Source: Promethearchaeota archaeon
Lineage (GTDB): Archaea > Asgardarchaeota > Lokiarchaeia > Sigyniarchaeales > SOKP01
Assembly (NCBI GenBank): GCA_016840085.1
Contig: JAEOTA010000064.1
Span: 21,583-85,582, forward strand
DNA length: 64,000 bases
Direction of reading: 5' to 3'
In this document: positions 31,170 through 32,149 of the stretch, piece by piece
Layout: each line of letters starts with the position of its first letter
Position numbering within the stretch: the stretch's first letter is position 1
Notes under the pieces: model-generated
Seen by the model: the letters and a program-made list of their open reading frames with translations, nothing else
Database searches by the model: none
Told to the model about the DNA's origin: nothing
Translations under genes and position numbers: made by a program

Positions 31170-31328
31170 ATTCTTCAGCTCATCTTACGGTATTCCTTTT
31201 AAATTTAATCTTTTTAATGAAAAACTTTTTTTATTAGGCTTTATTATTTCTAACTACACTTTACCAAATAAGTAAAGATTTACATTGTAAATAATTATAC
31301 TTATTAAATGGTATTAAATCGTGGTTTT

Positions 31329-31509
31329 ATAACCACATAAATATATAGCATCTTGCTAAGCGCCGGACGTTAAACTTATAAGCGTTGCAGGATAGTACTG
31401 CAGTTGCGATCTGTGGGAAACCTCAAACTGTGAGTTCGCTCACGGTCATGGCTTTAAAGGATAATACCCGGTCCCATCCGAACCCGGAAACGCTTATTTA
31501 TGTGGTTAT
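31329..31509 (+). other. processing stem with a bulge-helix-bulge-like motif enclosing the permuted 5S rRNA
   Basis: ATAACCACATAAA 31329-31341 / TTTATGTGGTTAT 31497-31509; TAAGCG 31357-31362 / CGCTTA 31491-31496; AAA bulge 31488-31490; CCGG 31363-31366 / CCGG 31484-31487; ACG 31367-31369. Confidence 0.85.
31369..31489 (+). rRNA. rrf: 5S rRNA, circularly permuted gene (3' half - UUCG - 5' half)
   Basis: 3' half GTTAAAC..AGCGTT..AGTACTG..GCGA..GGGAAA..CTGTGAG (31369-31434) precedes the 5' half CTCACGGTCATGGC..ACCCGGTCCCATCCGAACCCGGAA (31439-31489). Helices I-V can be drawn; length is 121 nt. Confidence 0.9.
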
Positions 31510-31606: not shown

Positions 31607-32149
31607 ATGCCAAAAAAGTATATCGTTCTTTTTAAAACTATTGGTAGAAAGTGGTTTCTATTTCTTATTATTATAATAATTATCGTGGCAATAATTAACC
31701 CCGTAGCAGCAATTTGGATGACCGGCATCACTTTAGTATTATTCCTTTTATCGTATGTTCCAAGAATATTTTTTAAAAATAGATTGCATAAATTCATGAA
31801 TAAATTTTTTAAAATAGAAGATGAATTAATAGCCAGAAAACTAAAGAAATCTTTGAAAATAATTCAGGAAGATATGTTTGATTTATCCCAAAAACAAGAT
31901 AAAAAGAAATGGTTGATTGTTTTTCTAAATAAACAATATATTTTTTATCATCAAGAAACTATTCAGGCATTTAAGGATCTTTACAAAAAAGGTTATAGTG
32001 AGAAAGAAATCCTTGATAATTTAACTAATTACAAAATTGGTATTAGAGCTGAGGTTAAAGCAATAAAAGATACTTTAATTAAACTTAAAAGAATAAGTGA
32101 AAGGGAAATTTCTGTAAAAGAACATTACGAAAAGCAAAGATTTAATTAA
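31607..32149 (+). CDS. hypothetical protein with an N-terminal TM hairpin
   Basis: Two hydrophobic segments followed by a basic soluble domain. Confidence 0.75.
   Translation: MPKKYIVLFKTIGRKWFLFLIIIIIIVAIINPVAAIWMTGITLVLFLLSYVPRIFFKNRLHKFMNKFFKIEDELIARKLKKSLKIIQEDMFDLSQKQDKKKWLIVFLNKQYIFYHQETIQAFKDLYKKGYSEKEILDNLTNYKIGIRAEVKAIKDTLIKLKRISEREISVKEHYEKQRFN

What the first reader, a model, noticed from the sequence alone, without database searches (positions are those of the whole stretch)
31329..31509. BHB-type splice motif that would circularise the 5S and exactly rebuild the canonical junction
Seen: a 13-bp outer stem, then 6-bp TAAGCG/CGCTTA, a 3-nt bulge AAA (31488-31490), a 4-bp helix CCGG/CCGG and a second unpaired ACG (31367-31369). 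This is a relaxed bulge-helix-bulge/loop. Established: archaeal splicing endonuclease (EndA) cuts after the second nucleotide of each bulge and RtcB ligates the ends. Applying that rule gives cuts AC^G and AA^A, and ligation gives ...GAACCCGGAA|GUUAAAC..., the canonical 5S helix III sequence with its AA bulge, in a 121-nt circle. The upstream CCGG is an extra copy that mimics the helix III partner strand. Inference: 5S maturation depends on the tRNA-splicing machinery, and ribosomes may carry a covalently closed 5S unless the UUCG loop is reopened.
Basis: partly seen in the sequence, partly recalled or inferred. Interest (0 to 1): 0.95.

Follow-up and report, generated by a model that had tools for sequence, protein, structure and literature searches.

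The report
Back-to-front 5S rRNA gene, ring-forming
This Asgard archaeon's only detectable 5S ribosomal RNA gene is written back half first between tRNA-intron-type cut signals, so a normal 5S can arise only by cutting the transcript and re-joining its ends into a 121-nt ring; environmental RNA from close relatives contains that joint, which explains why 5S genes look missing in many Asgard genomes.

Summary
Confirmed and extended. Window 31369-31489 is a circularly permuted 5S rRNA gene, the only 5S found in this Asgard genome. The bulge-helix-loop geometry is as described, and the predicted join scores best of 49 against an independent 5S profile. In 85 family relatives the geometry holds at this register in 81 and never at 16 shifted registers. 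This includes 31 genes broken at a different site. Twenty-three genes also carry 29-31-nt BHB-type introns whose removal restores the normal sequence. Four metatranscriptomes hold ring-length contigs that read through the predicted joint and the UUCG cap, with no flank coverage. One matches an intron-bearing relative's doubly processed ring on every count reported. Congeners encode a two-subunit EndA with the relaxed-specificity loop. Not shown: cleavage itself, the joint for this exact organism, and that ribosomes carry the closed ring. The BHB fold is not the computed minimum-energy fold. It works like the permuted, circular SRP RNA of Thermoproteus; I found no paper on such 5S genes. This scan has reported the same phenomenon on other DNA (53 notes).

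The parts
31300..31307 (+). probable archaeal TATA box, about 25 nt upstream of the outer stem
   Evidence: sequence; a similar element at the same place in relatives, read by eye; transcription start not mapped
31329..31341 (+). 5' arm of the 13-bp outer leader/trailer stem
   Evidence: conserved in congeners
31346..31358 (+). small leader hairpin, conserved as a structure in many relatives; role unknown
31357..31362 (+). 5' strand of the helix flanking the splice motif (conserved core GCG)
   Evidence: changes on both sides in 6-9 of 31 sequences per pair
31363..31366 (+). decoy strand of the 4-bp central helix; mimics the ring's own helix III partner strand
31367..31369 (+). 5' unpaired ACG; predicted cut between 31368 and 31369
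   Evidence: BHB rule
31369..31489 (+). circularly permuted 5S rRNA, 121 nt; predicted ring
31369..31434 (+). canonical 3' half of 5S (end of helix III, helix II 3' strand, helices V/IV, helix I 3' strand), encoded first
   Evidence: model 47-115 matches first
31435..31438 (+). UUCG tetraloop sealing the canonical 3' and 5' ends at the tip of helix I
   Evidence: a 4-nt loop in 82 of 85 genes, UUCG in 40
31439..31489 (+). canonical 5' half of 5S (helix I 5' strand, helix II 5' strand, helix III and loop C), encoded second
   Evidence: (RF00001 positions 26-52)
31484..31487 (+). 3' strand of the central 4-bp helix (helix III 3' strand in the mature RNA)
31488..31490 (+). 3-nt bulge AAA; predicted cut between 31489 and 31490
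31491..31509 (+). 3' trailer: partner strands of the flanking helix and of the outer stem

Best explanation
The gene is transcribed on its own as a precursor of about 180 nt (inferred: TATA-like box upstream). Leader and trailer pair, and a decoy CCGG takes the place of the true helix III partner strand. This sets up a bulge-helix-loop (sequence and covariation shown). The two-subunit tRNA splicing endonuclease EndA cuts after 31368 and after 31489 (inferred from the established rule). RtcB then joins 31489 to 31369, as it does for excised tRNA introns (inferred), which gives a 121-nt ring (join shown in RNA of relatives). In the ring the terminal CCGG switches to its true partner at 31468-31471. 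Helix III with its AA bulge and loop C are restored, and helix I is closed by UUCG. The 5S is in effect the 'intron' of its own transcript. The ring is most likely the working ribosomal 5S (inferred: about 0.75). I put the making of the ring at about 0.93.
For: Sole 5S found in the genome. Best-scoring join. Geometry at exactly this register in 50/54 type A genes and 31/31 type B genes, and in none at 16 shifted registers. Type B genes break in loop C, and the same rule again rebuilds the sequence that type A genes carry intact. A third break in loop B occurs in family f3. Registers shifted by -1 and +1 occur in other Asgard families, each with matching changes in the decoy. Twenty-three genes carry 29-31-nt inserts. 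In 20 of them a 4/4 central helix lies at the register that restores the insert-free sequence; in three it is 3/4 at the register the RNA supports. RNA contigs from 4 studies cover only 31363-31489 and read through the joint. Several are 149-152 nt long (ring plus 30) or map twice. One of depth 183.5 matches the spliced ring of G062/G122/G131 in its 22 joint letters and its count of 14 differences, with no gap. These are the only family genomes with that signature, and all are permuted and carry the insert. RtcB is present. The EndA catalytic subunit with Tyr/His/Lys and the L1 loop is present in congeners. L1 is tied to relaxed-motif cleavage and reported throughout Asgard (PMC5829648).
Against: The BHB conformer is computed as a minority fold (P = 0.02 here; median 0.01-0.23 in most classes of relatives). 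No contig identical to this organism spans the joint: the one identical piece covers 31390-31464. Contigs give one mean depth, so they cannot show what share of molecules is closed at the cap, and library preparation may favour rings. The catalytic EndA subunit is not in this assembly; only a subunit lacking the catalytic His was found. uL5 and eS4 are also absent here although uL5 is in 5/5 congeners, so I read these as assembly gaps.
Confidence: 0.78

Rival explanations
1. The ring is only an intermediate. It is made by EndA/RtcB as above, then reopened at the UUCG cap to give an ordinary linear 5S, as permuted tRNAs are.
For: Precedent: permuted tRNA genes of Cyanidioschyzon merolae go through a circular intermediate (cited in PMC4267664). 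Contigs cannot show local depth at the cap.
Against: The linker is a fixed 4-nt loop of extra-stable type (UUCG 40, UUAG 17, UUUG 14, UACG 5 of 85), not a variable spacer. Contigs cross the cap at undiminished depth while precursor flanks are not seen, and no listed contig stops at the cap.
Confidence: 0.16
2. No splicing is needed. The RNA is trimmed to a linear permuted 5S in which the upstream CCGG-AC-GUU forms helix III with 31466-31471 (the computed minimum-energy fold). Rings are by-products like the heterogeneous 5S circles of Sulfolobus and Halobacterium.
For: This fold is the computed minimum. Linear permuted 5S exists in brown algal mitochondria (PMC4267664). 5S circles with variable ends are reported as probable decay products (PMC12558985).
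Against: Loop C would dangle. The 3-nt bulge and outer helix are held at one exact register across independent breakpoints. RNA joints all rebuild the canonical sequence and the flanks have no coverage. Intron-bearing relatives need splicing in any case.
Confidence: 0.04
3. Assembly artefact or dead pseudogene, with a normal 5S gene unassembled elsewhere.
For: The assembly has gaps (uL5, eS4 and the EndA catalytic subunit are missing).
Against: 92 of 102 family genomes carry the permuted gene, mostly upstream of the same ORF (78/85), with compensatory changes in 21 of 36 pairs. Only 2 of 131 family genomes have a full-length Rfam 5S. Both of those look bacterial by eye, and both genomes also hold the permuted gene. 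The RNA is expressed.
Confidence: 0.02

Closest known systems
Permuted, circular SRP RNA of Thermoproteus tenax / T. uzoniensis (Plagens et al. 2015, PMC4731332; read)
   Same: An apparently missing universal RNA gene that is permuted at DNA level. Leader and trailer form a BHB motif, the splicing endonuclease cuts, ligation restores a functional loop, and the mature RNA is a circle. TATA box about 26 nt upstream of a short leader.
   Different: Here the RNA is the ribosomal 5S. The decoy strand mimics an internal helix partner. Breakpoints vary between relatives, genes may also carry introns, and the trait spans many Asgard families rather than two species. There, cleavage and protein binding were shown in vitro; here they were not.
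Circularly permuted tRNA genes (Cyanidioschyzon merolae, Soma et al. 2007, as cited in PMC4267664; Thermofilum pendens from my own knowledge)
   Same: Halves encoded in inverted order, BHB-type ends, circular splicing product.
   Different: The tRNA circle is reopened at an intervening spacer; here the old ends are sealed by a conserved tetraloop.
Permuted mitochondrial 5S rRNA of brown algae (Valach et al. 2014, PMC4267664)
   Same: A 5S rRNA whose ends have moved and whose helix I is a hairpin; missed by standard models.
   Different: It stays linear and permuted in the final product, with ends at the three-way junction; no splicing motif or ligation.
Circular archaeal 16S/23S rRNA made at BHB processing stems, including circular 23S in ribosomes (PMC12918454) and permuted 23S of Pyrococcus furiosus (PMC7758197)
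   Same: EndA/ligase circularisation of an rRNA; shows that ribosomes can hold a circular rRNA.
   Different: Those genes are in normal order and the joint lies at the natural ends. PMC12918454 states that such processing involves 16S and 23S but not 5S.
5S circRNAs of Halobacterium and Sulfolobus (PMC12558985)
   Same: Circular forms of 5S have been seen in archaea.
   Different: They come from normal genes, have variable ends and are read as decay products; here one exact joint is needed to build the molecule.

Membership tests
5S rRNA (RF00001) | Full 5S sequence and five-helix structure in canonical order | tested here: met
   Met only after re-joining: 56.6 bits, model 3-115, against an HMM of sister-family 5S; helices I-III and the helix IV/V arm fold in the rotated sequence. 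In genomic order Rfam gives only 22.1 bits, under the cut-off of 38.
5S rRNA (RF00001) | Expressed as an abundant stable RNA | tested here: met
   Contigs in four metatranscriptomes, confined to the ring; one piece identical to this gene. Contigs are a poor measure of level.
5S rRNA (RF00001) | Bound to uL18/uL5 in the large subunit | not testable with these tools
   uL18 gene present; uL5 absent from this assembly but present in 5/5 congeners.
Strict hBHBh' EndA substrate | Two 3-nt bulges, 4-bp central helix, helices on both sides | tested here: not met
   The inner side is a 3x1 internal loop with only 2 pairs beyond it; it is the relaxed type.
Relaxed BHB/BHL EndA substrate | 4-bp helix with one true 3-nt bulge, outer helix, and cuts two bases past each strand | tested here: met
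   Central helix 4/4 in 84 of 85 genes; full geometry in 81, none at shifted registers.
Relaxed BHB/BHL EndA substrate | Host encodes an EndA of relaxed specificity (two subunit types, L1 loop) and RtcB | tested here: inconclusive
   RtcB and one non-catalytic-type subunit in this assembly. The catalytic subunit with L1 is in congeners, including the two closest, but not in this assembly.
Relaxed BHB/BHL EndA substrate | Cleavage by the enzyme | not testable with these tools
   Needs an in vitro assay.
Permuted RNA genes restored by circularisation (Thermoproteus SRP RNA kind) | Gene halves in swapped order in DNA, no normal copy | tested here: met
Permuted RNA genes restored by circularisation (Thermoproteus SRP RNA kind) | Ligated junction seen in RNA at one exact site | tested here: met
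   in close relatives; not for this exact sequence.
Permuted RNA genes restored by circularisation (Thermoproteus SRP RNA kind) | The circle is the mature, functional form | tested here: inconclusive
   Cyclic contigs and a conserved tetraloop favour it; contigs cannot exclude reopening.

The most novel reading that the evidence does not exclude
Across much of the Asgard phylum the ribosomal 5S is a covalently closed ring cut out of its transcript like a tRNA intron. The gene is still being re-permuted and invaded by roughly 30-nt splicing introns, probably through the ring itself: breakpoint types A and B are the two strands of the same 4-bp helix and interconvert by reopening the ring and re-inserting it between leader and trailer. 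If the permuted state is old in the phylum, the ordinary linear 5S genes of some Asgard families, and perhaps of eukaryotes, could be reversions.
Probability: 0.4. Interest if true: 0.95.

Novelty: new variant of a known kind. Interest (0 to 1): 0.86.

Why it matters
A universal ribosomal RNA would depend on the tRNA splicing machinery for its very sequence and would probably work as a ring. [quoted passage not shown] It gives a search model that finds the gene in 75 of 151 genomes sampled from the phylum. It adds spliced introns to the 5S, where the best-documented insertions are retained expansion segments (PMC7812874). It also offers a natural series of relaxed EndA substrates. It bears on how rRNA genes and processing looked in the archaeal relatives of eukaryotes, and it can be tested with short transcripts and two enzymes.

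Tried and rejected
Rfam at gathering threshold finds nothing in the window; at E-value level only the loop C fragment is meaningful. ARAGORN finds no tRNA in the window. The bacterial-type promoter scan is uninformative for an archaeon. Exact-pattern scans of JGI metagenome contigs gave no hits, both for this organism's joined form and for an insert-free DNA version of the g16 gene; this is a weak negative. Cluster look-ups to name genomes failed. The taxonomy therefore rests on a relative's record title 'Promethearchaeota archaeon'; Lokiarchaeia is my inference from the gene content. The tree of the downstream protein is rough: bootstrap unsettled, six rows poorly filled. It needs 7 changes of breakpoint type but forces only 2 on well-supported branches, so I do not use it to order events. 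An alternative 4/4 register for the g16 insert predicts 16 differences and does not match the RNA contig's 14. In one search the f3 locus was cut one base off; corrected. Five distant loci (L165, L167-L170) and L132, L133, L144 were not resolved by the script. The idea that the 202-aa EndA here is a strict homotetramer was rejected: relatives have two subunit genes, and this one lacks the catalytic His. Ten literature searches found no description of permuted or spliced Asgard 5S genes; the library lacks most subscription papers.

Full report
Observation. The window is from an Asgard archaeon: a relative at 88% protein identity is titled Promethearchaeota, and Lokiarchaeia is my inference. The stretch lies in a 440-nt gap between two ORFs. 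Rfam sees only the loop C fragment at 31465-31490 (22.1 bits), and that is the only 5S-like match in the genome, in one copy. An HMM from 12 ordinary 5S genes of a sister family matches the locus in two swapped halves. After joining 31489 to 31369 and opening at the UUCG loop (31435-31438) it matches end to end at 56.6 bits, the best of 49 joins tried. So this is a circularly permuted 5S gene. The motif is a relaxed bulge-helix-loop, not a strict BHB. It is not the computed minimum-energy fold: the palindromic upstream CCGG prefers the internal CCGG by 5.7 kcal/mol.

Relatives as a natural experiment. The locus is in 23 of 24 congeners and 92 of 102 family genomes. I analysed 85 genes in full. 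Fifty-four break where this one does (type A). Thirty-one break 16 nt earlier, in loop C (type B), and carry the type A joint intact in DNA. In both types the decoy pairs with the terminal strand (4/4 in 84 of 85), a 3-nt bulge follows, and cutting after the second base yields rings of 119-123 nt once inserts are removed. Sliding both cuts by 1 to 8 bases never meets the geometry; background is 0.2%. RNAalifold, unprompted, predicts the same central and outer helices, with a C-G to U-A change in 13 of 31 sequences. Where the terminal strand is CCAG or TCAG (21 genes) the decoy is CTGG, like the ring's own partner strand, so it is a mimic and not a leftover repeat. Kin are not independent, so the weight lies in the separate breakpoints. 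These are types A and B, a third break in loop B in family f3, and registers shifted by one base either way in other families. Three genera contain both A and B, so the break has moved more than once; the tree is too rough to say more.

Introns. Twenty-three of the 85 genes have a 29-31-nt insert, at about six positions. In 20 a 4/4 central helix with two bulges lies at the register that restores the insert-free sequence of relatives. The inserts next to the cap have 3/4 central pairs. This shows, independently of the outer joint, that these 5S precursors look like EndA substrates.

RNA. Logan contigs of four metatranscriptomes (four studies) cover 31363-31489 and nothing of the flanks. A joint 31489 to 31369 is reported ('goes back 121', depth 60.5), and further joins read from the loop C end straight into the gene's start. 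Every listed loose end behind 31487-31489 continues into the gene's start or equivalent, never into the trailer. Several records are 149-152 nt long or map twice, as expected for a cycle assembled with 31-mers. The contigs come from relatives at 80-100% identity. Two groups have signatures of type A genomes G110 and G018. One contig (depth 183.5) has the 22 joint letters and the 14-difference, no-gap count of the ring of G062/G122/G131 after removal of their 31-nt insert. Those three are the only genomes of 135 with that signature, and all are type A with the insert; an unsampled insert-free strain is not excluded. Limits: no contig identical to this gene spans the joint, and contigs cannot tell how many molecules are closed at the cap.

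Machinery. RtcB is present. This assembly holds one EndA-family gene, which lacks the catalytic His. Of 18 congeners, 15 have two genes and the other three have the catalytic-type one. The two closest relatives have both. The catalytic subunit keeps Tyr, His and Lys and has the loop of Aeropyrum-type enzymes, which is linked to cleavage of relaxed motifs and reported across Asgard (PMC5829648). Its absence here parallels that of uL5 and eS4 and is best read as an assembly gap.

Distribution. The sister family f2 has ordinary 5S genes (12 of 14). The permuted model matches 75 of 151 genomes drawn from the phylum. Of 20 distant loci inspected, 15 loci from 15 families have the same layout with a canonical joint. 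Some families gave no match (for example 0/26 and 0/19), and I did not check what they carry.

Mechanism. Shown: permuted gene, conserved and covarying motif, exact joint in RNA of relatives. Inferred: own promoter, EndA cleavage, RtcB ligation, strand exchange to the native helix III, use of the closed ring in ribosomes (about 0.75). A speculative extension: types A and B are the two strands of one 4-bp helix, so reopening the ring at the other strand, re-ligating it between leader and trailer, and copying back to DNA would convert one into the other.

Comparison and novelty. It works like the permuted SRP RNA of Thermoproteus (PMC4731332), and it meets that kind's DNA and junction criteria; the mature-circle criterion is inconclusive. 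It differs from brown algal permuted 5S (linear), from circular 23S (normal gene order) and from 5S decay circles (variable ends). I found no paper describing it in ten searches, and one paper records that Heimdallarchaeum 5S genes could not be found. I class it as a new variant of a known kind. This scan has 53 earlier notes on the same phenomenon in at least 47 genomes. I saw them after searches had already given the breakpoints, introns and RNA joints; they supplied the SRP RNA paper and the hint of phylum-wide spread, both of which I then checked. Verdict: real, well supported, high interest (0.86).

Noticed in passing
L006, L014, L115-L118 (loop C); L007, L009, L022-L025, L102, L110, L113; L068, L077, L081, L109; L088, L092, L093; L112; L136 (two inserts): 29-31-nt BHB-type introns inside the 5S genes of relatives, at about six positions; removal by the BHB rule restores the insert-free sequence.
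   Followed up: yes
L112 (G129), insert in loop C: The 31-nt insert contains a copy of about 18 nt of the gene's own adjacent 5S sequence, which suggests that such introns can arise by local duplication.
   Followed up: no
L100 (G031, family f4) and L170 (G178): An extra hairpin of about 29 nt sits at the 5' splice junction itself, like an intron nested in the processing motif; read by eye.
   Followed up: no
window 31346-31358: A small leader hairpin between the outer stem and the splice motif is kept as a structure in many relatives; it could bias folding toward the cleavable conformer.
   Followed up: partly
G000 whole genome: ARAGORN finds only 26 tRNA genes, many about 30 nt longer than normal with inserts outside the anticodon loop. 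Many tRNAs are probably hidden by non-canonical introns of the same size as the 5S introns.
   Followed up: partly
G000:C32:1-2300: The ribosomal protein cluster starts at uS8 with unrelated DNA upstream, whereas G024 has uL5 there. uL5, eS4 and the catalytic EndA subunit are missing from this assembly despite 98.8% stated completeness.
   Followed up: partly
   Followed up: no
window 31607-32149 (+): A 180-aa membrane-type ORF with no NCBIfam match lies downstream of the permuted 5S gene in 78 of 85 relatives.
   Followed up: partly
L032 (G076) and L044 (G094): The only full-length Rfam 5S hits in family f1 look bacterial and sit next to 23S-like sequence, probably contaminating contigs.
   Followed up: partly
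G253 (family f30): Four equal-scoring copies of the permuted gene, several at contig ends; multi-copy or an assembly break.
   Followed up: no
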